Assembly (NCBI GenBank): GCA_008690995.1
Contig: VRMN01000001.1
Location: forward strand, 682,001 to 746,000
DNA: 64,000 nucleotides
Origin: Porphyridium purpureum
Taxonomy: Eukaryota
Direction of reading: 5' to 3'
The position numbers were made by a program, and so were the translations under genes. Shown here in pieces: positions 9,501-47,815 of the stretch. The notes under the pieces are model-generated. The model did not search any database, had not been told where the DNA came from, and saw only the letters and a list, made by a program, of their open reading frames with translations. Each line of letters opens with the position of its first letter. Positions within the stretch are counted from its first letter, which is position 1.

Positions 9501-10576
9501 GGGCTTGCATTTTCGACTTGCTTTGTGAGGGTGCTGTCACAACTGTGCCGTCTGAGTTTGCGGCGCATCGAAAACATCCAATTACAGCAAGAAGCGCGCG
9601 CCGGTCTGCAATGCTTACACACCTCTCGCGAAGGCCGCGTCCCTTTTCTGCAATGGCTGCACACATACGGTCAAAGTTAATGGGGCAACCCTCCACTAGG
9701 TTGAACAATGCTCCAGCTGCCTCGCGATGCACGTCCAGCCACTTCATACCCGTGCTCAATGGCAGCGATGACGTGCCGGATGCTGCAAGTACCTCAGCCT
9801 CTCCCCACATCGCCAGCTCGGTACACAGAGGCACCATGCCAATCATGGCGCCCTGCCAGCGCTCATTTACCGCAAGATCGATCGCAATACCTAAGAGCTG
9901 GCCCAGAAGAAGCACGCAGTCATCGTTCTCTTTCGCATGGGGACGAAGAATTTCAAAGGCGGAGGCGAGCGATTCGCACATTCCTTGACCTGCGCGAGCA
10001 CAAGAAAAAGGAAAGACGACGAAGAGATGAGCCAACGTACACCATGGCATGTTACAGCTGTTAGTCAACCCTGAACTTACAAACATCCCTGTGTCTCTTG
10101 CAAAGTGGTACTGGGCGTGCGAAACCGGGAGCAAATGACTCGATCACTTACATGCACAATCGAGAAATACCAAGTTTTCAAGCCGCTTCTTTAGGGCATC
10201 GAGCAGTCGACGAGCGCGCTCAAAGTCGCGACTGGCGACCAAGTCCATAAAAAGCTTCCAACTTTCGGATACAAGCATCTGCATGTACTTTGCGTGCGAC
10301 CCGTCCTCTGACTTCATCTAGAAGAATTATAATTTCGCCTCGAAGCAGATAGGTTAGCATCTGCATGCATCCTGTCGATCCCGGAACTCAACGTGTGCAT
10401 CCGCAAAAGGTGTGTATTGAGATGCATGTATTCCTCCCGCGCGATTTTGACATCCGGCAGGTCAAACGCAAGCAGTTCTCCAAGCCTACCTTGCCCTCTG
10501 GATCGCACTGCAATGCATTCAGTACACGATCGGCGCTCCATCGCGGCACAACCTGTGCCTCTCGCTTCTCCACCAT
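6544..10576 (-). CDS. Large protein with helical N-terminus, PH-like domain, long disordered region and C-terminal coiled coil; candidate SYCP2/Red1/ASY3-type meiotic axis protein. Exons about 10576-10490, 10317-10152, 9989-6544
   Basis: Phase-0 intron 10489-10318 (GTAGGC...CTAAC...TTCTAG) and phase-1 intron 10151-9990 (GTAAGT...GCAG) give one open frame. FWLDVNSFLLSF recalls the SYCP2 PH-domain FWIDFN motif. Coiled-coil C-terminus. Confidence 0.6.
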
Positions 10577-22930: not shown

Positions 22931-25900
22931 ATGCCGTACGCATTCGTACATCCAGGCTACGTGCTGTGTTGTCCGGCGCGCGCGACTCTGGATTGGCCGT
23001 GCACCGGGCCGCGGCACGCAGCTATCGGCAGGATAGGACGGTCTCCGTGCGATGGGCAGGGCTCGGCGTCTACGCGGCCTCGAGGCCGCCAAAGACGCGC
23101 GCGCTCGTCCGTTGTCTTTTGTCTGGCGGTACGATGCGGTGACTTTCAGAGCGGCGAGTTGCGTCCTCTTTGCGTCGCGTTCTCGCAATCGCCGAGCGAG
23201 GTAAGACATCCACGTCGGCATGGAGGGCGGCGGCGGCGGCGGCCCTGCGACGAACGGAGAAGACAGGGCACAGTGGGGTGCACATCCGCAGCGCCGGTCC
23301 ACAATCATTCTTTTGTGTCCCGAACGCGAGAGCAGCTCGCCTCGGCACTCGGTGTGGTGGTACTGGCATTCTCATTGGTCTTACCGTTGTCCGCTCCAGC
23401 GAATGCGTCGCCTGCTCGACAAACTGATCTTTCTCCAGTCCAATCGCGTTCGTGCGCAGACTCTTCGCGCCATACAGCGTGGCGTGATTCAAAGGCGTCC
23501 AGAAGAGGCAGACGGTCGGTCATCGCACATGTAGCGCGCTGGAAAGCATTGGGCGCTCAGGAAGCCATGGGAGTAGAATTGAAAGGAAGCGAAGATACAG
23601 GCAACTGGGGATCACTCATGACCAAATACCAGATACCATCAGGTGGCGGACTGTGGAACACTCCAAGTGCGAGAGGAGCGACACTTCAAAACACCGACAC
23701 TTCAGAAGCGGCCAGCTTGGGTTTGTTTGAGCGTGTGCGGTACAAGCTGGACTTGTGGCTGGAATGTGATCGCCGCGCATATCTTGTGTTGCTCGCGATA
23801 TTTACAGTGACATGGGTGTTCATCGCAGCCTTCATCTGGTGGTTGATCGCGCGCATCATGCCCCGCCTGATGTATAAAAGCCGTCAGTCCGAAAGCGCAG
23901 CCGGGATCACAAAGCCGGTTGAAATGCCTTTCCATGAAGCCATCTGGAAAGCGTGGAGCTGCTTGGCGTCTGCAAGCACGCACACTAAGGAGAAGACTGC
24001 GCTCAACCGGTTTGTCGCTTTGTTGCTGACACTGTCTGGGCTGGCGAGTTACTCCATCATGACTGCCAGCATTTCGGCGTCCATGAAGGAACGCTTTGAG
24101 GTGCTGCGACATGGTCAGCTTGCGCATCCCGTGCTCGAATCTGGCCACGTGCTGGTCGTTGGATCCAATTCGCACTTGGTCCCGTTGTTACGAGAACTAG
24201 ATGACTCACATTCGTTTGCCCTGCGTGAGCGACGAGTAACATCGAAGAAGCTCAAGGTCGTCCTTCTATCTGACACGCTATCTCCTGTTCGCAAGGCGAT
24301 GCTTACGAGAATTCGGACAGCGATGCAGGCGGGACAATTGCCACGGCTTCTGGTGCTCACCCGGCGGGGGCCGACCAACGACGCCGAGACTTTTCGATTA
24401 GTGAGCGCGGACAAGGCGAAGCAAGTCATCATACTGTCAGATGATGAGCAAGCTCAGGTTTCGCCAGACTCCAAGGCGCTGCGAAGCGTGCTTGCCCTGC
24501 AGAACGCCACGCGCACGGGAGAAGTGATTGTGGAAGTGTCCAAGGCTTCTACCGCAGGATTACTGAAATCACTCGCATCGCACAACGGCATCGACATGCC
24601 TCTTTGGGTAGATAACCGGAGTGCTCACCCGAGTGGTCTACAGGTCACGCCAGTGGTTCAGAACGTGGCTGCCAAAGTGTTTGTGCGCTCAGCTCGCAAG
24701 CGCTCATTGTCTGCAATCTATGCGGAATTGCTTTCACACAAGGGTACGGTCATAAACGTCCGCGAGTTCCCGACCCTGGCCGGCTTATACTACAAGGACC
24801 TGTTCGAGCAGTTTCCGTCGGCCGTCGTTCTTGGCCTCATCAAGTCCGGGGGGAGAGTTACGTTCAATCCCAAAGGTCGCTACGTCATCCAGAGCAATGA
24901 TCGGATCATGCTCCTGGGCAAAAAGCGATGCAACTTGGTTCCTCCGCCGGCTCTTGAAATATTAGCTCAGAATCGTCGTATTGAACGCGCTGCTCTTGTG
25001 GAAGCGACCACACTGAAAGAGGCCGTCGCGAATGGCAACGGTGCAAATCAGATGAATGTCTCCTCGCTGAAGACATGGAAGGAGCCAAATGGCACTGGCA
25101 ATGGTAACGGGTCTCGAGCAACAGCGCCCCTTTCGAGCAGCGTTCACTCGCGCTCCAAGCCGAGCGCTCCGCGACTCAAGAAAGACGGTAGCGACCGCGA
25201 AGTCTTTCTGTGGGAGACGGCGAGGAGCGACCCCACAAAACAGCCCAGTGAATTTGTACTCATGTCTGGATGGAACGAAGAGGCTGCAGATGTGCTCATA
25301 GAACTGGATCAGTATGTGGGACTACACTCGTCTGTAGTTGTTGTTAGCAAGGTGCCGATTGCGGAGCGCGAGCATGTGATCACGCGCAAGCTGCGTCGCG
25401 AATCGCGCCATGCGCGGCTGAAAAATCTGCGCGTGCATCACGTGTACGGGAACCCGCTGAGCCGCACCGACCTGTGGGAAGCTGTAAACGTGTCCGACAG
25501 CAAGCGCAAGTCATTGAGCTCGATTATGGTAATGCCGGAAAGTGGTTGGCGAAGTCTCCCGGGCGACTCTGATGACCACTGTGTGATGGCCGCGCTGCTC
25601 GCGGAGCACGTTTTTGAAGACGCCGGGCTAAGCGCAAGATCGATCACTGCATTGCTTGAGGATGGGCGCCTGTGCAGCCAGCTGAAGCGTGCGCACCCAA
25701 AAATTTGCTTTGTGAGCGTTTCGGAGCTCATGGGTCTGTATACAGCCCAGTGCAGCGAGCACAGCGAAATGGGCTGGATCTGGAGCGACATTTTCACTTC
25801 GGACGGCTGGGAAATCAGCCTCAAGTCGCCCAAGTCGTACCCTGCGTTTTCGGCGACCACGTCGCGGACCATAAGCGCCATGCGTAAAATGGCGCGCAAG

Positions 25901-26047
25901 TGCAGCAACGACGTGGTGATTGGGGTGTGCAAGAGTTGTGGCTCGGACGACTTCAACGGATCGGAGGAGTTTGTGCTCAATCCCGAAGACCCCGACCTCA
26001 TCGTGTCGCCCGACGACCGCCTCATCATCGTCTCGGCGTACTTCTAG
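22931..26047 (+). CDS. CASTOR/POLLUX-family cation channel, POLLUX-like/PEC subgroup
   Basis: Two TM helices around the pore WKAWSCLASASTHTKE, then PVLESGHVLVVG, RCK domains with TFNP, GWN, GNPLSRTDL, and the C-terminal NP...DRLIIVS. Long N-terminal targeting region; start uncertain. Confidence 0.85.
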   Translation: MPYAFVHPGYVLCCPARATLDWPCTGPRHAAIGRIGRSPCDGQGSASTRPRGRQRRARSSVVFCLAVRCGDFQSGELRPLCVAFSQSPSEVRHPRRHGGRRRRRPCDERRRQGTVGCTSAAPVHNHSFVSRTREQLASALGVVVLAFSLVLPLSAPANASPARQTDLSPVQSRSCADSSRHTAWRDSKASRRGRRSVIAHVARWKALGAQEAMGVELKGSEDTGNWGSLMTKYQIPSGGGLWNTPSARGATLQNTDTSEAASLGLFERVRYKLDLWLECDRRAYLVLLAIFTVTWVFIAAFIWWLIARIMPRLMYKSRQSESAAGITKPVEMPFHEAIWKAWSCLASASTHTKEKTALNRFVALLLTLSGLASYSIMTASISASMKERFEVLRHGQLAHPVLESGHVLVVGSNSHLVPLLRELDDSHSFALRERRVTSKKLKVVLLSDTLSPVRKAMLTRIRTAMQAGQLPRLLVLTRRGPTNDAETFRLVSADKAKQVIILSDDEQAQVSPDSKALRSVLALQNATRTGEVIVEVSKASTAGLLKSLASHNGIDMPLWVDNRSAHPSGLQVTPVVQNVAAKVFVRSARKRSLSAIYAELLSHKGTVINVREFPTLAGLYYKDLFEQFPSAVVLGLIKSGGRVTFNPKGRYVIQSNDRIMLLGKKRCNLVPPPALEILAQNRRIERAALVEATTLKEAVANGNGANQMNVSSLKTWKEPNGTGNGNGSRATAPLSSSVHSRSKPSAPRLKKDGSDREVFLWETARSDPTKQPSEFVLMSGWNEEAADVLIELDQYVGLHSSVVVVSKVPIAEREHVITRKLRRESRHARLKNLRVHHVYGNPLSRTDLWEAVNVSDSKRKSLSSIMVMPESGWRSLPGDSDDHCVMAALLAEHVFEDAGLSARSITALLEDGRLCSQLKRAHPKICFVSVSELMGLYTAQCSEHSEMGWIWSDIFTSDGWEISLKSPKSYPAFSATTSRTISAMRKMARKCSNDVVIGVCKSCGSDDFNGSEEFVLNPEDPDLIVSPDDRLIIVSAYF

Positions 26048-33919: not shown

Positions 33920-34906
33920 ATGGCCTTTGTTGGAGGATTCGCGGGCGTGAGCCGCGCGTCGGTCGCGCGCAAGGAGGTCAGCGTGCAGATGGGGCTCGGC
34001 GAGCAGGTGGCGCAGCGCGCGCGCGCCGACCTGGCCAAGGTCATGGAGGTTGTGGGAAAGGACTCGAAGGCTAAGAGCGCACTTGCCGCGCTGGCGGTCA
34101 GCGCGGCCGTCATGGGCACCCAGATGACCCCCGTGCAGGCATTCACAGAGGAGGACTTCCGACAGCTGTCCTACGAGCAGGTCAAGGGAACCGGCCTGGC
34201 CAACAGGTGCCCGGAGGTGGACGGCACCAAGGGATCCATCAAGATCGAGAAGGGAAAGAAGTACAAGATCGTCGACATGTGCATCGAACCAAAGAGCTTC
34301 CAGGTTGAGGACGAGGTCGGCAAGGGCAAGCAGGCGCGCAAGGAGTTTGTCGACACCAAGCTCATGACGCGTGCGACTTACACGCTGACCGGCATTGAGG
34401 GTCCGCTCACCGTGAACGCCAACGGTGACTTGGAGTTCCAGGAGAAGGACGGCATCGACTATGCCGCAACCACGGTGCAGCTGCCGGGAGGCGAGCGCGT
34501 GCCGTTCCTGTTCACGGTCAAGGAGCTCGTGGCGACGGCCAAGGGCGACTCGATTGGCTCAGGAACCGAGTTTGGCGGCGAGTTCACAGTGCCTTCGTAC
34601 CGAACGGGTCTGTTCCTGGACCCCAAGGGCCGTGGCGGTGTGACGGGCTACGACATGGCCGTTGCGCTGCCGGGCATGATGGCTGACGGTGCCGAAGGAC
34701 AGGACGAGCTGTTCAAGGAGACGAACAAGGTGTTCCAGGTGACGAAGGGCGAGATCGAGATGGGCGTGCAAAAGGTGGACCCCTCCACGAACGAGATTGC
34801 CGGCGTGTTTGTGTCGGAGCAGCTGACCGACACGGACATGGGTGCCAAGGCGCCGAAGAACATCCTGCTCAAGGGTGTGTTCTACGCTCGCATTGTTGAG
34901 GAATGA
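33920..34906 (+). CDS. psbO: Photosystem II Mn-stabilising protein PsbO
   Basis: MAFV bipartite transit peptide; VKGTGLANRCP, GIDYAATTVQLPGGERVPFLFTVK, FLDPKGRG. Confidence 0.98.
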   Translation: MAFVGGFAGVSRASVARKEVSVQMGLGEQVAQRARADLAKVMEVVGKDSKAKSALAALAVSAAVMGTQMTPVQAFTEEDFRQLSYEQVKGTGLANRCPEVDGTKGSIKIEKGKKYKIVDMCIEPKSFQVEDEVGKGKQARKEFVDTKLMTRATYTLTGIEGPLTVNANGDLEFQEKDGIDYAATTVQLPGGERVPFLFTVKELVATAKGDSIGSGTEFGGEFTVPSYRTGLFLDPKGRGGVTGYDMAVALPGMMADGAEGQDELFKETNKVFQVTKGEIEMGVQKVDPSTNEIAGVFVSEQLTDTDMGAKAPKNILLKGVFYARIVEE

Positions 34907-36257: not shown

Positions 36258-37034
36258 TTACGCCCAGCCAAGAAGCTTCCCGACGATGTCCATGCCTGTC
36301 TTGGCCTGCCAAGCAAACAACCCGATCACAAACACGCCCGCCGCCAAGTGAGCGTCGCGCGCAGGCTTGCTGCTCTTTTGCATGGCAGGAACAAGCGATG
36401 CCATGAAGGTCATCGTGGCGACGAGGCCCAATCCTGCGTACAGATGCGGGCCAGGGAAGAGCTTGCCCGCTCGTGAAAAGGTGTTGGCCATACCTTCAAA
36501 CGTGACGAGAGTCACGACCGCCATGAGCGACGAGGACATGGCGAAGTGCTTCTGGCCCGGCTTTTCCTTGGCGAGCTCCTTCTTCTTCTCAGCATCGTCG
36601 GTGGTCTTGAGCTCGCGCACCTGCCAACCCAAGTATCCCGTGTAAGCGCACGTGCCGAACAGAATCCACATGGTGATGGGGTGGACGAGCGAGGCCGGCT
36701 TGGTCTTCATCAGCTCAGTGAGTCCATCTGCGGCGTTGGCCGCGTCCGGCGCGCCCACCATGACCAAGGCGAGCGCGAGCGCGGCCGCCGTGACCATGGT
36801 CTGGTCAAACTCCTGCGCGTGTGCCAGATCCTGCTGCACAGACGGCTCTTCGCGCGCCTGCACGAGCGCGTGCTTTGACGCCTCGCTGTCCTCCCGATCC
36901 ACGCTGCAGCAAATCCGAGCTCGCGAGGAGGTCGCTGCGGGCACGGCCGACGCGGCCCGCTTCTGCACCTTCAAGCCGGTGCCGGCCGTCGCGGCCGCGG
37001 GAAGCGCATTGATTCCATACACAAACGCCGCCAT
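36258..37034 (-). CDS. Plastid membrane protein, DUF4079-like
   Basis: LVHPITM, YLGWQ, GKLFPGPHLYAGL, ARDAH, WQAKTG; MAAFV transit peptide. Confidence 0.8.
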   Translation of the reverse strand: MAAFVYGINALPAAATAGTGLKVQKRAASAVPAATSSRARICCSVDREDSEASKHALVQAREEPSVQQDLAHAQEFDQTMVTAAALALALVMVGAPDAANAADGLTELMKTKPASLVHPITMWILFGTCAYTGYLGWQVRELKTTDDAEKKKELAKEKPGQKHFAMSSSLMAVVTLVTFEGMANTFSRAGKLFPGPHLYAGLGLVATMTFMASLVPAMQKSSKPARDAHLAAGVFVIGLFAWQAKTGMDIVGKLLGWA

Positions 37035-37325: not shown

Positions 37326-39599
37326 TCACGTCGGCTCATTTTGCTGCTGTTGCTGCCGACGCAGCTGCGCCTGTTTGGGATTGCGCGCTGTGTAATGGGT
37401 ATGCAGCAGTTCGTGAGACTTGTGGCCCAACGGTTTGCCCAGAAAGTCGTCGTACAGCTGAAGGATCTCCGAGTTCTCGTGGCTCGTGCGCAGCGGAAGA
37501 TCCGCGTCGCCCTTGTACACGGCCGCAAACCGTTTTTGCAGAAGCTCCGTGTCCACTGCATCCTTCGGGTTGCCTGCACCTCCAATGCATCCTCCCCGGC
37601 ACGCCATCATCTCGACAAAGTGGTAAGGCGGAGCCGTCCCGGCCCGGATTTTGTCCACCAGCTCGCGCAGATTCGAGCCTTGGTGCGCAATGGCTACCTG
37701 CAGCGCGGTACCGTGTAGGTCTACCGTCGCTTCGCGGATCCCGTTCAAACCGCGCACCTCTTCGAAATTGAGGCGCGGCATGCTCCCTCCGCCAGGCGGC
37801 GCAGTCACCGCGTACGCAGTGCGCAGCGCGGCCTCCATCACACCACCGGTTGTTCCGAACAGCAGCGCCGCACCGCTCGACTTGCCCAGCGGTGAGTCAT
37901 ATTTCGAATCTGGCAATGTCTGGAAACTGATCTTCGGACGGTGCATCTTGATGAGTCGTGCCAGCTCGCGTGTCGTCAATACGTAGTCGACGTCACGTCC
38001 TCCGGCTTCTGTCCTGAAATTCTCGCGACTGGCTTCGTCCTTTTTCGCCACGCATGGCATGATACTTACTACTTTCACCTCGCTCGGATGTCGCCCAATC
38101 TTTTGCGCAAAGTACGACTTTGCGATGCTGCCGAACATTTGCTGGGGGCTTTTGCAGCTGCTTACGTGTGGAATGAGGTCTGGGTACACCTTCTCGACCA
38201 TGTTGATCCAGCCTGGACAGCAACTTGTAAACATGGGGAACGGTCCGCCGTTCGCGATGCGCTGCAGCAGCTCATTGCCTTCTTCGAGAATGGTCAGGTC
38301 AGCGGTGAAATTAGTATCAAACACATAGTCAAAGCCCAGCATTTTCAGCACGGTCACCAGCTGACCCGGCGTCGTTGCGCCCGGTGGAAGGCCAAACGCT
38401 TCTGAAATTGTTATTCTCACAGCCGGGGCCGTCTGCACGACCGAGACATACTTGCGAAGGTCATTTAGCTTCTTCTCCAGCGCATCGTCCTCGCCAAACT
38501 GAACTGGCCCGGCAGACACGGTATTCTTCGTACTCTGGCTCACTTCCTCCTGGGGTGGCACGAGCTCCTGTTCCTCGAGACGTGCATAGTCGATATTATT
38601 CTCCAGAAGATCTTGTACATCCTGCAAGGCGTCCTTTTCGGTGATCGCTGCCACTGGGCAGCTCGCCACACACGCGCCACACGAAATGCACTCTGTTTCC
38701 TTCATATCCAGGTTGTATACGGGCGCTACAACTTCCTCATTGCCGCGCGCTACGACGCCCAGAATGTCCATGCCTTGGAGCTCTGAGCACGCGCGCACGC
38801 AGCGCAAACACAAAACGCACATCTCAAAGTCGAGGTCAAGGGCCGGTGATGTGCGATCATTCGCATGCGCACGTCCGTCCTTCTCCAGGGACGGCTTTAC
38901 GCGTGGCTTGACAAATGGCGGGGGCGGCACGTCGTACCGGCCGACCAGATCTTGGAACTCGCACTGGCCGTTTGCTGCGCACGTCTGGCACCGGTCTGGA
39001 TGCCGGTAGCGCTGCATCGCGATCTGGGAGCGCACGTGGTCCTTGAGTTCTGGCGTATTTGTTAGCACGACCATCCCCTCCGCCGCAGGAGTCGCGCACG
39101 ACGCGACCTTCTTGCCGCGCGATGGGTTGTTTCTCAAAATGTCCACCAGACACAGCCTGCACGTTCCGGCAGGCTCAAGGTTTGGGTGGTAGCATAGCGC
39201 GGGCACGTACACGCCTGCTTTGCGCGCCGCCTCGAGAACCGAAGCCCCTTCAGGCACCTCGACCGAGCGCCCATTGATCATTAATCTCACCATTTTCACC
39301 GCGTGCTGTGCGTGCAGCGCTTGCGCGGCCGCTGTGGAGGTCGCCACATTGGGCACCCAGTCCCACGGCCGCCGATGCTGCGCGAGTGTCAGTTCACTGA
39401 ATGGCTTCGAACTGCCCAACCATGACGTCCTGCCACCTCGCGCCGTCGACGAAGTCATGCGGAGCTGCGTGACGCGCGACACGATAGCCGTCGTGCCCAT
39501 GGCCATCATCGACACCGCACACGAGTGCAGCACGGCTGGCACTTGCGCGTGCAGCATCCATGGCGCCAGCACACTGCTGCCGATCTGCAATGCCTGCAT
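37326..39599 (-). CDS. hydA: [FeFe]-hydrogenase with full F-domain (2Fe-2S, His-ligated 4Fe-4S, 2x4Fe-4S) and N-terminal presequence
   Basis: H-cluster motifs FTSCCPGW, IMPCVAKKDE, EMMACRGGCIGGAG; QTAPAVR, ADLTILEE, TTGGVMEAALRT, SHELLHTHY. F-domain LCYHP..GTCRLC..ASC, HPDRCQTC....QC, CVLCLRCVRAC, CISCGACVASCP. Confidence 0.95.
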   Translation of the reverse strand: MQALQIGSSVLAPWMLHAQVPAVLHSCAVSMMAMGTTAIVSRVTQLRMTSSTARGGRTSWLGSSKPFSELTLAQHRRPWDWVPNVATSTAAAQALHAQHAVKMVRLMINGRSVEVPEGASVLEAARKAGVYVPALCYHPNLEPAGTCRLCLVDILRNNPSRGKKVASCATPAAEGMVVLTNTPELKDHVRSQIAMQRYRHPDRCQTCAANGQCEFQDLVGRYDVPPPPFVKPRVKPSLEKDGRAHANDRTSPALDLDFEMCVLCLRCVRACSELQGMDILGVVARGNEEVVAPVYNLDMKETECISCGACVASCPVAAITEKDALQDVQDLLENNIDYARLEEQELVPPQEEVSQSTKNTVSAGPVQFGEDDALEKKLNDLRKYVSVVQTAPAVRITISEAFGLPPGATTPGQLVTVLKMLGFDYVFDTNFTADLTILEEGNELLQRIANGGPFPMFTSCCPGWINMVEKVYPDLIPHVSSCKSPQQMFGSIAKSYFAQKIGRHPSEVKVVSIMPCVAKKDEASRENFRTEAGGRDVDYVLTTRELARLIKMHRPKISFQTLPDSKYDSPLGKSSGAALLFGTTGGVMEAALRTAYAVTAPPGGGSMPRLNFEEVRGLNGIREATVDLHGTALQVAIAHQGSNLRELVDKIRAGTAPPYHFVEMMACRGGCIGGAGNPKDAVDTELLQKRFAAVYKGDADLPLRTSHENSEILQLYDDFLGKPLGHKSHELLHTHYTARNPKQAQLRRQQQQQNEPT

Positions 39600-39864: not shown

Positions 39865-40000
39865 GCGTGCGCGCGCGCGCGCGCATGCCCGTTCCACATG
39901 CAAACTCAGCCCTACGCATTGCCTCTGGCGCTGACAAATCCCATGCCGATTCACTCGCCTCCCGCAACACACACACACACACTCTCTCTCTCTCTCTCTC
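39865..40000. repeat. (GC)8 alternating purine-pyrimidine tract and compound (AC)8(TC)9 microsatellite upstream of hydA
   Basis: Read directly at 39865-39888 and 39967-40000. Confidence 0.85.
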
Positions 40001-40187
40001 TTTTGGCACCAACGTCTCTCCTATCGTACTAGTAAACCAGCTATGCGTTGTCATCATTATGCCTTTCCCTCTTACACTTTACGTACAGATTCACAACAAC
40101 CAACAAAATGCACTCAACTTGCAAGCGCTCATCCACCAACTGTACTCACACAGAACACAATCCACCCCCGTTTTTTCATCTTTTATA

Positions 40188-41730
40188 CAGTCCTGGCCAA
40201 GATGTTTGCAACACCCTCATAAAAAGAGAAATTCGTGTAAAAGTGAAGAATCTTGATAGACAAGGGTATGTTTTGAGCACGCCAATCGATCGCACGTCCC
40301 AAGAAACACTGGGGAGCGTCCAACGGGAGGAAAAGGCAAGGAAAGAGCACATGGGCAATGGAGACACCGAAAAGGGGTATTGGCGAGAGGCGCAAGTTTT
40401 GGAACGTAAGAAAGAAACACGAAGATCAAGAAGGATGAGACTTTAGTACTTGGTGTGGTGGCCGCGCACGTCTAGTACAGCTTGAAGACGGCGAGGCATG
40501 GACTCCAACAGTGGAACTACGTACTTTTGGGCCTCGGTCGCCCACGCCGCAAGGACGGCAGCCTTAAGTTCTGCGACGCGTGCGAACTGGCGGCATTTTC
40601 GGTAAACCACGCGCGACAAGACGCCCCAAATGTTTTCAATTGGGTTAAGGTCCGGAGACCTTGCAGGCCACGGCAGCACAGTGACGCCGAGTGCGTCGAG
40701 CCACGCCTTGGTCGAGTTGGCCGTATGTGCCGGGGCATTGTCTTGCTGGAAAGTGAAATTGAAGTCATACATTTCCAGGCCGAACGGAAGCAAGGCTTCC
40801 AGCAAGACTTGTTGATACTTCACGGCATTCAAGCCACCCTCGACGAAGACGGCCATTGTTAGGCCGCGCAGGGACATACCGGCCCACATGTGAACCTTGC
40901 CACCTCCAGAGTGCTGACGCCTGGCGTACGAACTTGACTTAGCGCGACAGTCGACCCATCGCTGCGAGGAGCCGAATGGGCCATCGCAGCTCCAAATCTT
41001 CTCGTCTGAAAAGACCACTTGATGCCAGAAAGCCATTGGTTTCGCAATGAATGCGGTGGCAAACGCCAAACGCTTCCTGATGTTGTCAGACGACAGCGAA
41101 GGTTTCCGCGAGACTCGCTTGTAGCGAAGAAAGCCTGCTGCTTGAAGCGTCCGACGCACTGTCCTGGCCGAGCACTGCAAGTGCAGCTCGTGAACCACCT
41201 GTCCGGACGTCAGTGCATCAACAGATACGAAGCGAATGATGCGGCGTTCCGATTTGCGACTCAAAAGCCGTTTCGGACCTGGCTTCTTGCGGACAATTCG
41301 GCGCCCCCTTGACGCCAGATAACGGCTCACAGTTGCATAGGACGGTCGCGAGCGATCTGGGCGAGGCTTCAGAGCCTTCGCAATGGCTCGCACCGACAGC
41401 TCCTGGCCCGCAAGGGCGTCGATCTGCCCTTTTTCGTGTTCCGACAGCCACGGCGCCATTGTTCGGCCGTCGCGCGCTCAATTTCGATCTGGAGACTCTC
41501 CGCTTGCGCACGACGAGATGGATCAGCGAGCGAAGATCCTTTGAGCACCTTCTGATGGTCTGGGGAAAACAAAAACGCGCGCGCCGCGCCTTGGTTCATC
41601 GTCATGCTCGATGTTGACAATGTTAAAAAAAGAGTTAAAAGTAAGTTTTCTATTAAAATGGGCTATTTCACGATAAGATCCAATTTTTTGGACCAAAATG
41701 CAGGTGTTGCAAACATCTTGGCCAGGACTG
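40188..41730 (-). mobile_element. Intact Tc1/mariner DNA transposon (1543 bp)
   Basis: Perfect 28-bp TIRs CAGTCCTGGCCAAGATGTTTGCAACACC (40188-40215 and reverse complement 41703-41730), flanked by TA duplications (40186-40187, 41731-41732). Confidence 0.97.
40443..41459 (-). CDS. Tc1-family DD34E transposase
   Basis: N-terminal HTH regions, VVFSDEK, FQQDNAPAH, WPARSPDLNPIENIW; 34 residues between the second D and E. Confidence 0.96.
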   Translation of the reverse strand: MAPWLSEHEKGQIDALAGQELSVRAIAKALKPRPDRSRPSYATVSRYLASRGRRIVRKKPGPKRLLSRKSERRIIRFVSVDALTSGQVVHELHLQCSARTVRRTLQAAGFLRYKRVSRKPSLSSDNIRKRLAFATAFIAKPMAFWHQVVFSDEKIWSCDGPFGSSQRWVDCRAKSSSYARRQHSGGGKVHMWAGMSLRGLTMAVFVEGGLNAVKYQQVLLEALLPFGLEMYDFNFTFQQDNAPAHTANSTKAWLDALGVTVLPWPARSPDLNPIENIWGVLSRVVYRKCRQFARVAELKAAVLAAWATEAQKYVVPLLESMPRRLQAVLDVRGHHTKY

Positions 41731-42054
41731 TACATACAAATTGAACATCAAAAATTAAAATTAGAGTTAAAGTTGACGAAGTTCGTCTAGTGATGTGGCG
41801 TGTGACTGTACCTTCTACCAGAATGCCTTTTTTCCCATTGTGGTGGTGCGTCAATTTCTTCTTGCGGTGGGTGTACAGCTGAAATCTCCACACACACACA
41901 AACAAGCGTATCACAATAAATATCGTGCGCGCGCTGGGTCATGAAGTTGTTCTTTCCTTTTAGGCTCGACCCGATCACCATATCAACGCGCATCACACCA
42001 CTACACTAAAACACAACTAATCCCAGTACTAGTGCCAGTCATAATAGTAGTAGT

Positions 42055-42851
42055 CGTGGAATTTTAGGGTTCCGCCCCGAGAGACGCCGTAGGGTTTTGA
42101 GTACAAAACCCTAGAAAGTTCTATGATGAAAGATTGTTCGAGAAGCGTGATGATCTCGGACCTGCGAAATGTTTGTCATTGTCGTTTTGTGTGACCTTGT
42201 GCAAAGGTCAAAGGCCGGCCGAAGCTTCTGGATTCGTTCTTGACGCGCCCTCCCGGCCATTTTCCGGATACGTGGCCGGCTGTGGTTGCGAGTTGTGGAA
42301 CGAATCAAAACCTGTGGTGGAAATTCGTCCTGTTGGAGAAATTTGTTCTCCCGTCCTTGCTGGAAAGAGCAAGGACGAAGGGTATAAAAGGACGAAGGGG
42401 CAAGCTGGTTCCCAGGAATTTCCAGGTCAAGGTAGAAGAAGAGGTAAGGGCAAATAGAATAAAAAGAGAATTGGTTAGTTGGATTGAGGCAGTCGTTGGA
42501 AGACTTGGGTTGGATTTGCGGGAGAGGCACGCTAGCGTGTTGTGCGAGCGGATATCGGTCTGGAGTGTTTTTAAAAAGGCAGCTGGGGTTTAAACGTACC
42601 TTCCATCACCCTTCACTTGTCAAGACCGGTCCACTCCCTCTCGTAGTCCCCTATAAGTTGAATTTTCTGTCCTCTCTTCCTTTCTAGCCACTTTTCTCTG
42701 ATTGTCCTGCTTGTCCTTCCGTTCGTTTCGGTGTGTCGGTTCGTCGTCGGTTTGTCAGTTTCCGGGGTGTGGCGGTTTCCAGTTCCTGTTATCGGTGAAG
42801 CGATCCGGTTTTGTTGATTCGGTTACAAAGCAGAAAGGGAGAAATTCCAAG
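42055..42851 (+). repeat. 5' LTR (CG-TGGAATTT...AAATTCCA-AG)
   Basis: Matches 47019-47815 with one difference noticed (A42194/G47158). TATAAAA at 42383 and AATAAA at 42458. Confidence 0.96.
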
Positions 42852-42869
42852 TGGTATCATCGCCCGGTT
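42852..42869 (+). promoter_or_regulatory. Primer-binding site, probably for initiator tRNA-Met
   Basis: TGGTATCATCGCCCGGTT directly after the LTR. Its reverse complement parses as AA|CCGGG|CGATGAT|A|CCA, a tRNA 3' end. Confidence 0.85.
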
Positions 42870-42880
42870 GTTTGGAGAAA

Positions 42881-43828
42881 ATGGAAAGCCATGAAATGGA
42901 AATGAATGTCCCGCAGGAGAATGCGGCATGGATTGAGGCAGCTAATCAGCTGCATGCGCGCATTGCGGGACAGGAGATGATGATGGCACAAGTGCAGGAA
43001 GCGAATCGTAACCTCCATGAAATGATGCAAGTTTTGTTGCGCCAGCAGACCGTGGCGTCTGGGTCTGGTGACAACGATCGTGCCATGGCCGCGTTAATTG
43101 GGCGCAGTTTGAGAAAGTTTGATGGTCAGCGTGACAAGCTCGTTGTCAATGAATGGCTGATGCGAATGAAGAGCGACCTGGATATCTGCATGCCCGCAGG
43201 TGCTTTGGACTCGCAGAAAGTGATTGTTGCAAGTCGCTTTTTCGAGAGGGACGCAGCGCTGCTTTGGGCAGCTCGTCCGGAGGAGCAGAGAAAGGGCCTT
43301 GCAGAGGCCGGATGGGATGCGTTCGCAAACTTCGTGCGCACAGCGTTTGAGCCGCCGCAGGCGCATTTGACAGCGCGCACCAATCTGTATCAGTTGAAGC
43401 AAGGGAAAATGACGGTCGCAGAATTTGAGCAGAATCTCAGGATGACAGCGTTGTCAGTTGAAGATGTGACAGATGCAGAACTGAACACCATCTTCACGCT
43501 GGGCTTGAAGGAGAAACTGCGTATTGAGGTGGCCCGTCAGGACACAAGGACCTTGGAAGAATCACTGAAAGTTGCGTTGGCAGCTGAGCAGGTTGCAAAG
43601 TTCGGAGGAGATATGAGTCAAGTGATCAAGAACTCGTCATCGACTCATAGCAGGGCGTTCTCGTCGCATTCTGGTAGCGCACCAATGGATTTGGGAGCCA
43701 TGGACAAGCGGAAGTCTGGCAAGACCAAAGTGAAGTGTTACCATTGTGGAGAACGTGGACACATTAAGCCCAAATGCCCTAAATTGAAGGAGCGCTTGGC
43801 AGGTGGTCCGCCAGAGCCGGAAAACTAA
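42881..43828 (+). CDS. gag: Gag (Ty3/gypsy-type capsid plus CCHC zinc knuckle)
   Basis: KFDG...WL, LKQGKMTVAEF, FTLGLK, APMDLG, CYHCGERGHIKPKC. Confidence 0.92.
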   Translation: MESHEMEMNVPQENAAWIEAANQLHARIAGQEMMMAQVQEANRNLHEMMQVLLRQQTVASGSGDNDRAMAALIGRSLRKFDGQRDKLVVNEWLMRMKSDLDICMPAGALDSQKVIVASRFFERDAALLWAARPEEQRKGLAEAGWDAFANFVRTAFEPPQAHLTARTNLYQLKQGKMTVAEFEQNLRMTALSVEDVTDAELNTIFTLGLKEKLRIEVARQDTRTLEESLKVALAAEQVAKFGGDMSQVIKNSSSTHSRAFSSHSGSAPMDLGAMDKRKSGKTKVKCYHCGERGHIKPKCPKLKERLAGGPPEPEN

Positions 43829-43880
43829 GACCTCGAGAGCCAAGACAGGAGGAGATCTCGAGGGGAATGGAGCCTCCTGT
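43819..43880 (+). promoter_or_regulatory. -1 programmed ribosomal frameshift: G_GAA_AAC slippery site plus H-type pseudoknot
   Basis: Heptamer 43819-43825 just before the gag TAA. Pol is in the -1 frame and open across the site. S1 CCTCGAGA/TCTCGAGG, S2 ACAGGAGG/CCTCCTGT. Confidence 0.85.
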
Positions 43881-46800
43881 AATGGGTGTTGTGGAAGGTG
43901 TTGCGCACGAGGGTGCGAGGTCAAGGCTCTTCTACAAACATGGGAAAGTGAGTGGTTCAAAAATCGACTTCTTGATTGACAGTGGAGCGTCGCATAATTT
44001 CCTGGGGTCCCGATTCTTGGACGCAAGCGTAAAGTCCAGTTGCGATGAATGCATGGTCGAGCTTGCGGGAGGACAGAGAATGAAGGTGCACGGCCCCATT
44101 GTGCTTGCGGTGGACCTCGGTTTCTGGATAGGGAACGTCGAGTTTTATATCGGTCCCATTCGTATGGATGCCATCTTAGGGTGGAAATGGCTCAAGATGG
44201 TGAATCCTAAGATTGATTGGCAGAAGGGACTGATGGAAACGAGGCCCGAGGGGAAGGAAATATGCACGTTGGAAAATGTTGAAGAAGTGGTTCCCGAGCT
44301 TGACGGGAAAAATCAGAGCGTGGCTGCTTCGGAACACGAGTTGACTCACATGCCTATGCAAAGAGACTGTGAGACGTGTGTCGTGGCGAAGATAAAGCGA
44401 CGCCCGGCCCGAAGGCTGGAGAAAGATGTCAGTGCATTGTCATTCAATGATGAAGTCGGAATTGACTTGGTGGAGCCTGGGCGAAATGTGAAGTCGGTAG
44501 ATGGTTCAAAGTTTATTTTGACGCATATCGACAGAGCCACAGGATGGGTGACATTGGCGGGGCTACGTGCGAAAACCCACACGGCGGTTGCGGACGCTTG
44601 GAAAAGTGTGCAAGCCGGGAGAGGATGGCCGAAGGTTTTGCGAACGGATGATGGGAATGAGTTCAAGGGAGATGTGGGGAGACTGGTGCGTGAACACCTC
44701 ATAAAGCACGAGGTGGGGATTCCGTACAGGCCAAACAGTCATGCTGAACAGGAGCGGTTTCACCACACGCTGAATCAGGGAATCCGTGCGAATCTTGTGC
44801 AGGCCGGACTCGGGAAGCGTTGGTTCATGCACGCCGCGCAGCATTTTGCGTTCATGACGAATAGACTTCACGTGGGCAGGAAGTCTGGAAAGACGCCGTT
44901 TGAATTACGACATGGTGAAAAATGGTCGCCGAGAAATCTTAGTTTGCCATTCGGGTGCAAGGTGGTCTACAAAGATGATCAGCCTGACAATAAGTATGCA
45001 CCGCGAGGAAAAGTTGGCATTCTCGTCGGCGTTGGAGAGCATCCGATGGCAATTTTGGTGCTTCCTCGGGATGACTGGACGAGTGAGACCCCAAAAGTAA
45101 TTCGCACTCAGGATTTTAAGGCATTTACCCATGAGTTCCCTTTAAAGGGAATTGAACGAGAGGTGGTGAGCCTGAGCCAGCAGGAAGAGTTGCCAGAAGT
45201 GGACGAACCATCCGCGGTTGAAGCGGTGCAGGACTTGGATCGTCGTATCGATGCTCTCAGAGCTAGAGAAGCGGAGCTTGAGAAAGAGATCGAGGCATTG
45301 AAAGTGAGAGTGGTTGACGAAGAACGGGCAGCAGGCACGGGTGGTCCAGTGACGATCCCACAGTTGAACTTAACGACTTTGCTGAAAACTGGAGCGGCGT
45401 TGGCGTCTGAGCAAGGACGAGCCGCGATGGAAAAAGAAGTCAAATCCATGCTGAAATTTGGGGTATGGGATGAGAGTCCCTTGACGCTGGAGGAGGCCCG
45501 GAGGCAACCTGGTGCTCGTTTCGTACGCACACATTTCATTTTCGGTCTGAAATTTGCTGAGATGCCGGAAGAATTTCGCAAGGTGAAGTGCCGCTTGGTG
45601 GCCGGGGGAAACAGGATATGGGGGTCCGATGGAGCTGCGACGAATGACATTTTTGATTATGAGACGCCTGCTGGTTTGTCAGCTATCCGAATGATAATAG
45701 CTGTGGCTGCAATTCTGGGCCTTCAGATTGTTAGTTTCGACATCAGCTCGGCATACCTCCATGCGGACCTGTCTGGGCCACCTACGTTTGCATACTTACC
45801 GCGTGAAATTTGTGATTCAAAAGACACAGTAGTCAGGCTGAGAAAGGCGCTGTATGGCTTGCCCAGGAGCGGCTCGGATTTCTCACAAGATGCTCGGAGG
45901 AGATTGCAAAAGTTCCAGTGGAAGCTCGTGCATGGTGAAAAGAATGTGTACGTCCGGAGAAATGCTGCAAGTTCGTCAGTTGCGTTGTTGGCTCTGTACG
46001 TGGATGATGGTCTATTAGCCTGTCGAGAGGAGGAACGCCCAGGAATCATCGAAGAATTGAAACAAGAGTTTCTCATAGAAAAAGCACCAGAACTATTGAC
46101 GGAAGGAGGATCCTTGAGATTCCTGGGGACGAGCATTTCCCTCAAAAATGGGAGCGTGAGTTTGGCGAATCAAGAGTATCAAGATGTGGTCATTCGGGAA
46201 TTTGAGCAGGATATTAGACGCGTATTGCGTGCCGTGAAGTCACCATCTGAGAAGCTAGATGGCGAGGAAGTTCTGAATTATCAAGTCATCTGGAAGACTT
46301 TGAAAGTAAGAGAACACGTCGGGAGGCTGATGTGGCTCGCCAGAACGGTTCGACCTGATATTGCGTATGCAGTCGGTATGATTGCCCGGTACGTTGACAA
46401 GTGGAATGTGGCAGCAGAAAGGCTGCTCGTACGAGTCGTGCAGTATTTGAAAACACCTCGGGAAGCATTGGAGTATCACGTGTTGGGGAATCTCAAGGAA
46501 GGCATCAGAGGGGTGAACATTCTTGGATACACGGATGCTGACTTTGCTGGTTGTCCAGAGAGTCGTGTGTCGACTTCTGGAAGAGCAACGTACTTAGTTG
46601 CTGGAGATTACAAGTACCTAGTGGATTGGTCTTCGAGAAAGCAGCGTTTCGTGAGCTCGTCGACTTCAGAGTCGGAGTTGGCTGCCCTAGAGGAAACTGT
46701 GCAACTCTCGTTGTTTCCTGCATTGTCTTTCTTGCGAAGTATACGTGACGGAGAGTTCTCGGTGATTTTGATGTGTGACAATCAAGCTGTGATGCGAGCA

Positions 46801-47031
46801 ATAGAGATGGGGTACTCGCCAAAGTTGCATCATATGGCGATAACCCGAGCAACAGATTTGGCCTGGTTGCATCAGGTGTGCGAAAAGCAGAAACTTGTGA
46901 AACTGGCATTTGTGAAGACGGACGAAAATGTGGCGGACTTAATGACCAAGGCCTTATTTCCGGAGGGCCACATTAAGTGCTGGGAGAAGTTACGCGTCCC
47001 TCAGACCGGAAGGAGGAGCGTGGAATTTTAG
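43819..47031 (+). CDS. pol: Pol polyprotein: protease - integrase - reverse transcriptase - RNase H (reached by -1 frameshift)
   Basis: PR LIDSGASHNF, DAILGWKWL. IN HELTH..CETC, IDLV, RTDDGNEF, QERF, PFGC..KYAPRG..GILVG. RT KCRLVAGG, FDISSAYL, KALYGL, LYVDDGL. RH YTDADFAG, STSESEL, CDNQA, ENVADLMTK. Confidence 0.95.
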   Translation, partial: GKLRPREPRQEEISRGMEPPVMGVVEGVAHEGARSRLFYKHGKVSGSKIDFLIDSGASHNFLGSRFLDASVKSSCDECMVELAGGQRMKVHGPIVLAVDLGFWIGNVEFYIGPIRMDAILGWKWLKMVNPKIDWQKGLMETRPEGKEICTLENVEEVVPELDGKNQSVAASEHELTHMPMQRDCETCVVAKIKRRPARRLEKDVSALSFNDEVGIDLVEPGRNVKSVDGSKFILTHIDRATGWVTLAGLRAKTHTAVADAWKSVQAGRGWPKVLRTDDGNEFKGDVGRLVREHLIKHEVGIPYRPNSHAEQERFHHTLNQGIRANLVQAGLGKRWFMHAAQHFAFMTNRLHVGRKSGKTPFELRHGEKWSPRNLSLPFGCKVVYKDDQPDNKYAPRGKVGILVGVGEHPMAILVLPRDDWTSETPKVIRTQDFKAFTHEFPLKGIEREVVSLSQQEELPEVDEPSAVEAVQDLDRRIDALRAREAELEKEIEALKVRVVDEERAAGTGGPVTIPQLNLTTLLKTGAALASEQGRAAMEKEVKSMLKFGVWDESPLTLEEARRQPGARFVRTHFIFGLKFAEMPEEFRKVKCRLVAGGNRIWGSDGAATNDIFDYETPAGLSAIRMIIAVAAILGLQIVSFDISSAYLHADLSGPPTFAYLPREICDSKDTVVRLRKALYGLPRSGSDFSQDARRRLQKFQWKLVHGEKNVYVRRNAASSSVALLALYVDDGLLACREEERPGIIEELKQEFLIEKAPELLTEGGSLRFLGTSISLKNGSVSLANQEYQDVVIREFEQDIRRVLRAVKSPSEKLDGEEVLNYQVIWKTLKVREHVGRLMWLARTVRPDIAYAVGMIARYVDKWNVAAERLLVRVVQYLKTPREALEYHVLGNLKEGIRGVNILGYTDADFAGCPESRVSTSGRATYLVAGDYKYLVDWSSRKQRFVSSSTSESELAALEETVQLSLFPALSFLRSIRDGEFSVILMCDNQAVMRAIEMGYSPKLHHMAITRATDLAWLHQVCEKQKLVKLAFVKTDENVADLMTKALFPEGHIKCWEKLRVPQTGRRSVEF
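47008..47018 (+). promoter_or_regulatory. Polypurine tract
   Basis: GGAAGGAGGAG immediately upstream of the 3' LTR. Confidence 0.88.
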
Positions 47032-47815
47032 GGTTCCGCCCCGAGAGACGCCGTAGGGTTTTGAGTACAAAACCCTAGAAAGTTCTATGATGAAAGATTG
47101 TTCGAGAAGCGTGATGATCTCGGACCTGCGAAATGTTTGTCATTGTCGTTTTGTGTGGCCTTGTGCAAAGGTCAAAGGCCGGCCGAAGCTTCTGGATTCG
47201 TTCTTGACGCGCCCTCCCGGCCATTTTCCGGATACGTGGCCGGCTGTGGTTGCGAGTTGTGGAACGAATCAAAACCTGTGGTGGAAATTCGTCCTGTTGG
47301 AGAAATTTGTTCTCCCGTCCTTGCTGGAAAGAGCAAGGACGAAGGGTATAAAAGGACGAAGGGGCAAGCTGGTTCCCAGGAATTTCCAGGTCAAGGTAGA
47401 AGAAGAGGTAAGGGCAAATAGAATAAAAAGAGAATTGGTTAGTTGGATTGAGGCAGTCGTTGGAAGACTTGGGTTGGATTTGCGGGAGAGGCACGCTAGC
47501 GTGTTGTGCGAGCGGATATCGGTCTGGAGTGTTTTTAAAAAGGCAGCTGGGGTTTAAACGTACCTTCCATCACCCTTCACTTGTCAAGACCGGTCCACTC
47601 CCTCTCGTAGTCCCCTATAAGTTGAATTTTCTGTCCTCTCTTCCTTTCTAGCCACTTTTCTCTGATTGTCCTGCTTGTCCTTCCGTTCGTTTCGGTGTGT
47701 CGGTTCGTCGTCGGTTTGTCAGTTTCCGGGGTGTGGCGGTTTCCAGTTCCTGTTATCGGTGAAGCGATCCGGTTTTGTTGATTCGGTTACAAAGCAGAAA
47801 GGGAGAAATTCCAAG
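47019..47815 (+). repeat. 3' LTR
   Basis: Direct repeat of 42055-42851 at offset 4964. Confidence 0.96.

What the first reader, a model, noticed from the sequence alone, without database searches (positions are those of the whole stretch)
37326..39599. Complete clostridial-type [FeFe]-hydrogenase in an apparent red-algal nuclear genome
Seen: all three H-cluster motifs are intact, including the proton-transfer Cys (TSCCPGW), the Met and Lys of MPCVAKK and the Met of EMMAC, plus ligands for four accessory clusters. The gene is intronless and directly adjoins plastid-targeted host genes. Established: this is the CpI-like (M3) architecture. Nar1/NARF lacks TSCCP and the 2Fe-2S domain, and Chlamydomonas HYDA lacks the F-domain. 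Inference: capacity for anaerobic H2 metabolism in a lineage not known to me for it, by retention or lateral transfer. The maturases HydE/F/G are not in this window.
Basis: partly seen in the sequence, partly recalled or inferred. Interest (0 to 1): 0.8.

Follow-up and report, generated by a model that had tools for sequence, protein, structure and literature searches.

The report
Red algal hydrogenase, likely mitochondrial
This is an intact nuclear gene for an iron-only hydrogenase, shared by several single-celled red algae of the Porphyridium group and already listed for Porphyridium purpureum in a 2019 supplement; it is unrelated to the chloroplast hydrogenases of green algae and likely works in the mitochondrion, where it would vent surplus electrons as hydrogen when oxygen runs out.

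Summary
Observation confirmed. 37326-39599 (-) is an intronless 757-aa group A [FeFe]-hydrogenase with all H-cluster, proton-relay and accessory-cluster ligands. It is a host gene: single contigs join it to its neighbours, codon use is host-like, and orthologues occur in Porphyridium aerugineum (two), Erythrolobus and Timspurckia. It is not new for the lineage: Gould et al. 2019 (Table S4) list HydA, HydF and HydG as expressed in P. purpureum, the likely species here. 'Clostridial' fits the architecture only. The tree puts the six red algal proteins (100/100) with Chara and two choanoflagellates (100/99), and AU tests reject grouping with the Chlorella/Chlamydomonas clade. The ~100-residue basic, Ser/Thr-rich extension lacks the red algal plastid Phe, so mitochondrial targeting is likeliest (about 0.6; Naegleria shows such extensions can mislead). 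No PFO or PFL is listed for the species, so the electron partner is open. HydE, activity and location are untested. The scan noted similar enzymes before in Naegleria and bacteria, not in a red alga.

The parts
37326..39599 (-). hydA: intronless [FeFe]-hydrogenase gene, 757 aa (true start codon not fixed; six in-frame Met in the extension)
39297..39599 (-). N-terminal extension, residues 1-101: 6 Arg, 1 Lys, 2 acidic, 21 Ser/Thr, no Phe in the first six residues from any of six Met; likely mitochondrial presequence
   Evidence: pLDDT under 50 over 1-99; present in relatives
39054..39296 (-). [2Fe-2S] domain, residues 102-182
   Evidence: Pfam Fer2_4 1.3e-19; four Cys
38928..39005 (-). His-ligated [4Fe-4S] site, H-x3-C-x2-C-x5-C, residues 199-224
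   Evidence: Pfam PF10588; conserved in 12 of 12 aligned rows
38640..38846 (-). two ferredoxin-type [4Fe-4S] sites, residues 252-320
   Evidence: eight Cys conserved in 12 of 12 rows
38484..38576 (-). low-complexity linker insertion between F- and H-domain (about residues 342-372); an insertion at this place, of varied length and sequence, occurs in the red algal, Chara and choanoflagellate rows and not in the P0009, Anaeramoeba or Pseudothermotoga rows
   Evidence: alignment A1; pLDDT under 50 at 347-372
37575..38441 (-). H-domain, residues 387-675
   Evidence: Pfam PF02906 1.5e-93
38208..38228 (-). H-cluster motif L1 TSCCPGW
38034..38060 (-). H-cluster motif L2 MPCVAKKDE
37578..37613 (-). 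H-cluster motif L3 EMMACRGGCIGG
37383..37547 (-). fused small-subunit domain, residues 685-739
   Evidence: Pfam PF02256 3.5e-24
36258..37034 (-). neighbour: DUF4079 gene with MAAF start (host anchor, not part of the system)
   Evidence: on one contig with hydA in 4 of 4 runs laid
33920..34906 (+). neighbour: PsbO (host anchor, not part of the system)
   Evidence: on one 6.7-kb contig with hydA in 1 of 4 runs, X8

Best explanation
This is an intact nuclear gene for a long-form group A [FeFe]-hydrogenase shared by Porphyridiales red algae, whose product is likely imported into the mitochondrion, is predicted to be armed there by the HydE/F/G maturases, and would pass surplus electrons to protons as H2 during dark anoxia. 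Shown: sequence, ligands, host linkage, conservation across the order, clade. From print: HydF and HydG are expressed in P. purpureum. Inferred: the species, the compartment, HydE, activity and direction. Electrons would enter at the outer [2Fe-2S] or His-ligated cluster, run along the two [4Fe-4S] clusters to the H-cluster and meet protons from the Cys-Glu-Ser-Glu-Arg relay. As no PFO is listed for the species, the donor is more likely a mitochondrial ferredoxin and/or NADH through NuoE/NuoF-type subunits than the classical PFO chain. The gene is old in the order and came by descent or by an ancient transfer between eukaryotes, not by a recent bacterial transfer.
For: All ligands and relay residues kept in 12 of 12 aligned proteins ([2Fe-2S] Cys). 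hydA and DUF4079 lie on one contig in 4 of 4 runs from 3 studies, one contig also carrying PsbO. Codon score ranks 4th of 25 ORFs, GC3 0.70 within the range 0.55-0.84. Red algal orthologues at 61-69% identity. IQ-TREE C20: six red algal rows 100/100; with Chara and P0036 98/92; with two choanoflagellates 100/99; inside a 17-row set with Stygiella hydrogenosomal enzymes 98/93. AU rejects red + chlorophyte-containing clade (p 4.9e-55) and red + Chara + P0036 + that clade (p 5.7e-06). All 10 of 10 clade-side rows in A1 carry a net-positive extension (+2 to +10), including plastid-free choanoflagellates; 0 of 6 red algal rows have Phe in residues 1-6, the usual rhodophyte plastid signal (PMC7038456). 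The P. purpureum HydF transcript starts with an Arg-rich, Phe-poor extension ending in a ...RCKYAT... motif of mitochondrial look (read by eye). HydA/F/G expressed in air-grown P. purpureum. Precedent: mitochondrial HydA with H2 evolution in Acanthamoeba.
Against: No localisation or activity data. Naegleria HydA has a presequence-like extension yet is cytosolic (PMC4007538), and a heterolobosean HydA (Willaertia) sits next to the 17-row set in my tree (94/74). The Phe control is imperfect: 4 of 7 window ORFs that I took as plastid candidates have Phe in residues 1-6; Timspurckia has Tyr3; the hydrophobic moment (0.41) does not separate from controls (0.28-0.53). P0036, the nearest non-red row, begins with a short charged stretch unlike a presequence (may be partial). 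No PFO or PFL entry for P. purpureum in Gould's tables, so no low-potential donor is known. HydE was not among Gould's queries. All four laid runs are flagged as possible sources of this DNA, and their contigs stop at 39938-39957. The AU groups were set after the tree was seen.
Confidence: 0.5

Rival explanations
1. Active hydrogenase in the plastid stroma, working like Chlamydomonas HYDA as a photosystem I/ferredoxin valve or for H2 uptake.
For: Gould 2019 argue that algal HydA was moved to plastids in the cases studied. A plastid ferredoxin would solve the missing-donor problem. The extension is basic and Ser/Thr-rich, as transit peptides are; Timspurckia has an aromatic at position 3. Old reports of H2-linked photoreduction in Porphyridium are recalled, not verified; a 2025 review lists P. 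cruentum as an H2 producer citing only another review.
Against: 0 of 6 red algal rows with Phe in residues 1-6, from any of six Met in the window protein. Separate origin from chlorophyte plastid HydA. Plastid-free choanoflagellates carry the same kind of extension.
Confidence: 0.2
2. Active but cytosolic hydrogenase with a vestigial extension, as reported for Naegleria gruberi, where PFO is also absent.
For: Naegleria precedent with long extension, maturases and no PFO. The window extension is long (101 aa) and poorly conserved.
Against: Extensions are kept, net-positive, in 10 of 10 clade-side rows; HydF also seems to carry one; nearer relatives include Stygiella and Anaeramoeba organellar-type enzymes.
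Confidence: 0.18
3. The protein is kept for a role other than H2 turnover (O2/redox sensing or Fe-S handling), or is not matured.
For: No known donor; HydE not shown; transcripts present in air.
Against: Every catalytic residue is conserved; HydF and HydG, which have no other known job (own knowledge), are retained and expressed; TIGR02512 cut-off passed.
Confidence: 0.09
4. Bacterial contaminant or very recent bacterial transfer.
For: Intronless; most of the 120 listed hits are bacterial or unnamed, at 43-49% identity.
Against: Contigs join it to host genes; host-like codons; orthologues in four other red algal data sets; eukaryotic extension; the neighbouring genes read as single uninterrupted ORFs too.
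Confidence: 0.02

Closest known systems
Porphyridium purpureum [Fe]-hydrogenase listed by Gould et al. 2019 (PMC6732389, Table S4: evm.model.contig_2663.1, with HydF contig_3384.19 and HydG contig_2123.4)
   Same: Same architecture; their transcript differs at 13 of about 227 F-domain residues from the window protein (counted by eye).
   Different: Their N-terminal extension and linker differ clearly, so it is another strain or a paralogue; that the window gene is the named gene model is likely but not shown. The main text read does not discuss its location, clade or donor.
Chara braunii CBR_g26339 and choanoflagellate (Microstomoeca roanoka, Salpingoeca infusionum) HydA
   Same: One clade, 100/99; long form; basic extensions; Chara has HYDA/E/F/G and no PFO (PMC8003979 Table 4).
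   Different: 48-55% identity overall (67% in the Chara H-domain); none studied experimentally in the papers found.
Acanthamoeba castellanii mitochondrial HydA (PMC13632651) and the predicted mitochondrial HydA set of Chen et al. 2026 (PMC13777428)
   Same: HydA plus maturases in an aerobic mitochondrion, anoxia-induced H2 evolution: the model proposed here.
   Different: Acanthamoeba has PFOR and proven location; its sequence was not identified in my tree. P. purpureum is among Chen's 203 species and may be one of their eight, which I could not see.
Clostridium pasteurianum CpI (PDB 1feh, 4xdc) and bifurcating HydA of Thermoanaerobacter kivui / Acetobacterium woodii (8a6t, 7q4v)
   Same: M3 cluster layout, all ligands and relay residues.
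   Different: 33-39% identity; better match to bifurcating HydA (498 bits) than to CpI (410); no hydB/hydC neighbours; eukaryotic extension and linker.
Chlorophyte plastid HydA (Chlorella variabilis F-domain form; Chlamydomonas short form)
   Same: Algal nuclear [FeFe]-hydrogenase; Chlorella shares the F-domain.
   Different: Separate clade (97/96); joint monophyly rejected.

Membership tests
Group A [FeFe]-hydrogenase (HydA) | H-cluster motifs L1, L2, L3 with four Cys ligands | tested here: met
Group A [FeFe]-hydrogenase (HydA) | Proton relay and cofactor pocket residues equivalent to CpI | tested here: met
   alignment to CpI, conservation in 12 of 12 rows
Group A [FeFe]-hydrogenase (HydA) | Score above the curated TIGR02512 cut-off | tested here: met
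   483.4 against 405.95
Group A [FeFe]-hydrogenase (HydA) | Maturases HydE, HydF, HydG in the genome | tested here: inconclusive
   No genome held; none among 34 window ORFs; HydF and HydG listed for P. purpureum in print; HydE not seen
Group A [FeFe]-hydrogenase (HydA) | H2 evolution or uptake | not testable with these tools
   needs assay
M3 (CpI-like) architecture | [2Fe-2S] + His-[4Fe-4S] + 2x[4Fe-4S] F-domain and fused small subunit | tested here: met
Clostridial ferredoxin hydrogenase (NF040762) | Model cut-off and clade | tested here: not met
   512 against 900; eukaryotic clade
Electron-bifurcating HydABC (NF040763, group A3/A6) | Model cut-off | tested here: not met
   719.7 against 765, the best-scoring model
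Electron-bifurcating HydABC (NF040763, group A3/A6) | Dedicated HydB/HydC partner subunits | tested here: inconclusive
   none in the window; rest of genome not searchable
Nar1/NARF/CIAO3 | Loss of the relay Cys motif and of the 2Fe-2S/His-cluster domains (definition recalled) | tested here: not met
   TSCCPGW and full F-domain present; no Nar1 sequence was in my tree
Chlorophyte plastid HydA | One clade with Chlorella/Chlamydomonas enzymes | tested here: not met
Rhodophyte plastid-targeted protein | Phe (or bulky aromatic) at the very N-terminus | tested here: not met
   0 of 6 rows with Phe in 1-6, one with Tyr3; control 4 of 7
Mitochondrial HydA | Cleavable presequence and matrix location | tested here: inconclusive
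   composition fits, hydrophobic moment uninformative, no trained predictor on hand

The most novel reading that the evidence does not exclude
Porphyridiales red algae (and Chara) make or use H2 inside fully aerobic mitochondria with an ancient eukaryotic hydrogenase that runs without PFO, coupled to NADH through complex I N-module subunits or a mitochondrial ferredoxin: the first oxygenic phototroph with a working mitochondrial hydrogenase, independent of the green algal chloroplast enzyme.
Probability: 0.35. Interest if true: 0.72.

Novelty: already known. Interest (0 to 1): 0.38.

Why it matters
All algal hydrogenases studied so far are chloroplast enzymes of green algae (list in PMC13632651), and the published reading is that algae moved HydA to the plastid. 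A separate lineage of HydA in red algae and Chara, nearer to choanoflagellate and protist organellar enzymes, would mean that Archaeplastida hold two hydrogenase lines in two compartments. It bears on the open question whether early mitochondria were facultatively anaerobic, and on what feeds eukaryotic hydrogenases where PFO is missing. P. purpureum is easy to grow, so location, activity and donor can be tested directly. The gene's presence is not news; these three points are.

Tried and rejected
Genome-wide search for hydE/F/G, PFO and PFL: no genome is held, so this rests on Gould's tables. Search among shorter proteins: none of the 120 listed exceeds 58% identity or is named as a red alga; only the 7997 best-sharing candidates were scored, so absence from other red algal classes is not shown. 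Hydrophobic moment did not separate organellar from other N-termini. The AlphaFold model from a 12-row alignment is weak in the F-domain (mean pLDDT 65, rmsd about 20 A to full-length templates, 3.6-3.7 A to H-domain-only HydA1) and adds nothing beyond the fold. The Atlas search gave only bacterial group A clusters. The subject range 103-747 in Gould's table fits both the window protein and their transcript, so it does not prove identity. Chen 2026 supplements: the table of predicted mitoproteomes is cut and keyed by accession; the Chara accession was not found in the part held; the PDF and three large tables could not be read. Three older papers asked for by recalled id were not held. Term searches in PMC10349137, PMC8781833, PMC4989108 and PMC3785491 gave nothing on a red algal hydrogenase. 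No complex prediction was run: no partner sequence was on hand.

Full report
1. Observation. The stretch 37326-39599 on the minus strand is one open frame of 757 codons. Pfam finds a [2Fe-2S] domain (102-182), the His-ligated cluster region (199-224), a double [4Fe-4S] region (252-320), the H-domain (387-675, 1.5e-93) and a fused small subunit (685-739). It passes the group A cut-off (483 against 406) and fails the clostridial (512 against 900) and the NADH-dependent A6 cut-offs (720 against 765). All three H-cluster motifs are intact. Against CpI the relay residues C460, E440, S480, E443, R447 and M514, K519, M665, F581 are kept, and they are invariant in 12 of 12 aligned proteins. The best solved matches are bifurcating HydA (498 and 486 bits), then CpI (410).

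2. Host gene or contaminant. The window is gene-dense and eukaryotic, with PsbO, a proteasome subunit, Rab, RPS2 and a starch-type glucanotransferase among 34 ORFs scanned. In 4 of 4 runs laid (3 studies) one contig carries both hydA and the DUF4079 gene; in X8 one 6.7-kb contig runs from before PsbO to 39957. The contigs stop at a microsatellite before the transposons, and all four runs are flagged as possible sources of this DNA, so they are not independent. The codon score ranks 4th of 25 ORFs and GC3 is 0.70. The exact protein is on record on a 5.7-Mb contig.

3. Relatives. The top hits among 7999 scored candidates are red algal: two paralogues in Porphyridium aerugineum, Erythrolobus australicus, a further MMETSP transcript and Timspurckia oligopyrenoides (61-69%), then Chara braunii, the choanoflagellates Microstomoeca roanoka and Salpingoeca infusionum, then Thermotogae, Anaeramoeba and Firmicutes at 43-49%. 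A full HMMER scan of 50% representatives added diverse rows. A FastTree of 147 rows (42 of 120 first hits after dereplication, plus representatives with near-full cover and nine shorter ones) and an IQ-TREE LG+C20 tree of 49 of those rows, rooted on seven rows of my choice from the mainly bacterial side, agree: six red algal rows 100/100; plus Chara and the unnamed P0036 98/92; plus the choanoflagellates 100/99; within a 17-row set that holds Stygiella enzymes 98/93. Chlorella variabilis, Chlamydomonas moewusii and a pedinophyte fall in a separate 7-row clade, 97/96 (names; four of the seven are unnamed). Holding the red rows with that clade is rejected (p-AU 4.9e-55), also when Chara and P0036 are added (5.7e-06); the groups were set after the tree was seen. 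Thermotogae sit unresolved among the eukaryotic rows, so no donor can be named. The gene predates the spread of Porphyridiales; descent with many losses and old eukaryote-to-eukaryote transfer both remain open.

4. Species and prior record. The protein lies inside Porphyridiales and is about 94% identical over the F-domain to the P. purpureum transcript in Gould et al. 2019 (13 differences in about 227 residues, by eye), so the window is likely P. purpureum; the differing extension suggests another strain or a paralogue. Their Table S4 lists HydA, HydF and HydG as expressed in air-grown P. purpureum; Table S1 holds P. purpureum entries for HydF, HydG and acetate kinase but none in the visible eukaryote lists for PFO or PFL (code APU fixed), and none of the 4 PFO BLAST rows is P. 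purpureum. HydE was not queried. So the lineage is on record, though only in a figure and tables; ten literature searches found no paper on its activity, location or clade. The library lacks most subscription papers. Chen et al. 2026 include P. purpureum among 203 species and report eight eukaryotes with predicted mitochondrial HydA and all maturases; the files that name them could not be read, so the mitochondrial reading may already be in print there.

5. Compartment. All 10 of 10 clade-side rows in alignment A1 have such an extension (23-121 residues, net charge +2 to +10), the bacterial row none. Rhodophyte plastid signals mostly carry an N-terminal Phe (PMC7038456). None of the six red algal proteins has Phe in residues 1-6, nor does the window protein from any of six in-frame Met; Timspurckia has Tyr3. 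Four of seven window ORFs taken as plastid candidates have it; the other three may have miscalled starts. Plastid-free choanoflagellates share the extension, and the P. purpureum HydF transcript begins with an Arg-rich stretch of mitochondrial look (by eye). Against this, Naegleria HydA has a similar extension and is cytosolic, the hydrophobic moment was uninformative, and P0036 lacks a clear presequence. My odds, given an active enzyme: mitochondrion 0.6, plastid 0.2, cytosol 0.2.

6. Mechanism. Shown: a complete electron wire and catalytic site. Inferred: import, maturation by HydE/F/G, and use as a redox valve in dark anoxia, as shown for Acanthamoeba mitochondria. The donor is the gap. P. 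purpureum has no PFO on record, and Chara has HYDA/E/F/G without PFO. A ferredoxin or NuoE/NuoF-type NADH link is the likeliest input, in line with the best match to bifurcating HydA, but H2 uptake cannot be excluded.

7. Verdict. Real, intact, host-encoded, of a known kind and already tabulated for the likely species; uncharacterised. What is added here is conservation across the order, separate origin from green algal HydA, and a likely mitochondrial address. Interest 0.38.

Papers seen: PMC6732389, text parts 1-3 of 6, Table S4 whole, Table S1 part 1 of 3, search hits in other supplements, no figures; PMC8003979, passages with Table 4; PMC13632651, passages and Discussion; PMC13777428, passages, one section, supplement searches; PMC4007538, abstract and passages; PMC7038456, PMC11216029, passages; PMC11314055, passages and one section, which says streptophytes lost hydrogenase, at odds with Chara; PMC12304615, abstract, one passage and part of the reference list; PMC10349137, PMC8781833, PMC4989108, PMC3785491, term searches only. 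CpI residue roles, the Nar1 definition and old photoreduction reports are recalled.

Noticed in passing
window 40186-41732: Tc1/mariner element with 35-nt terminal inverted repeats (94% complementary), TA flanks and an intact 338-aa transposase ORF (40443-41459, -); its inner repeat end lies 586 bp upstream of the hydA ATG; much deeper than single-copy DNA in 3 of 4 runs laid.
   Followed up: partly
window 42055-47815: Young LTR retrotransposon: 797-nt repeats differing at 1 position, separate gag (42881-43828, Ty3-like capsid and zinc knuckle by Pfam) and pol (43867-47031) ORFs with protease, an integrase-like stretch without Pfam hit, and a copia-type RT; the repeats begin CGTGG rather than the usual TG.
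   Followed up: partly
window 22931-26047 (+): 1038-aa ORF with a Castor/Pollux ion-channel domain (3.1e-23).
   Followed up: no
window 6544-10086 (-): 1180-aa ORF without any Pfam match at 0.001.
   Followed up: no
proteins P0002/P0121 and P0005/P0122: Porphyridium aerugineum has two hydA paralogues that group together (100/99), a duplication after its split.
   Followed up: partly
protein P0007: Chara braunii HydA groups with the red algal enzymes, not with chlorophyte HydA, and has a strongly basic amphipathic extension.
   Followed up: partly
protein P0244: Unnamed 4122-aa protein with seven hydrogenase-like stretches repeated about every 444 residues; may be an assembly artefact.
   Followed up: no
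PMC6732389 supplementary file 3: A hydrogenase transcript labelled Guillardia theta matches the P. purpureum transcript letter for letter over the part shown, likely cross-contamination; it is not in their Table S4.
   Followed up: no
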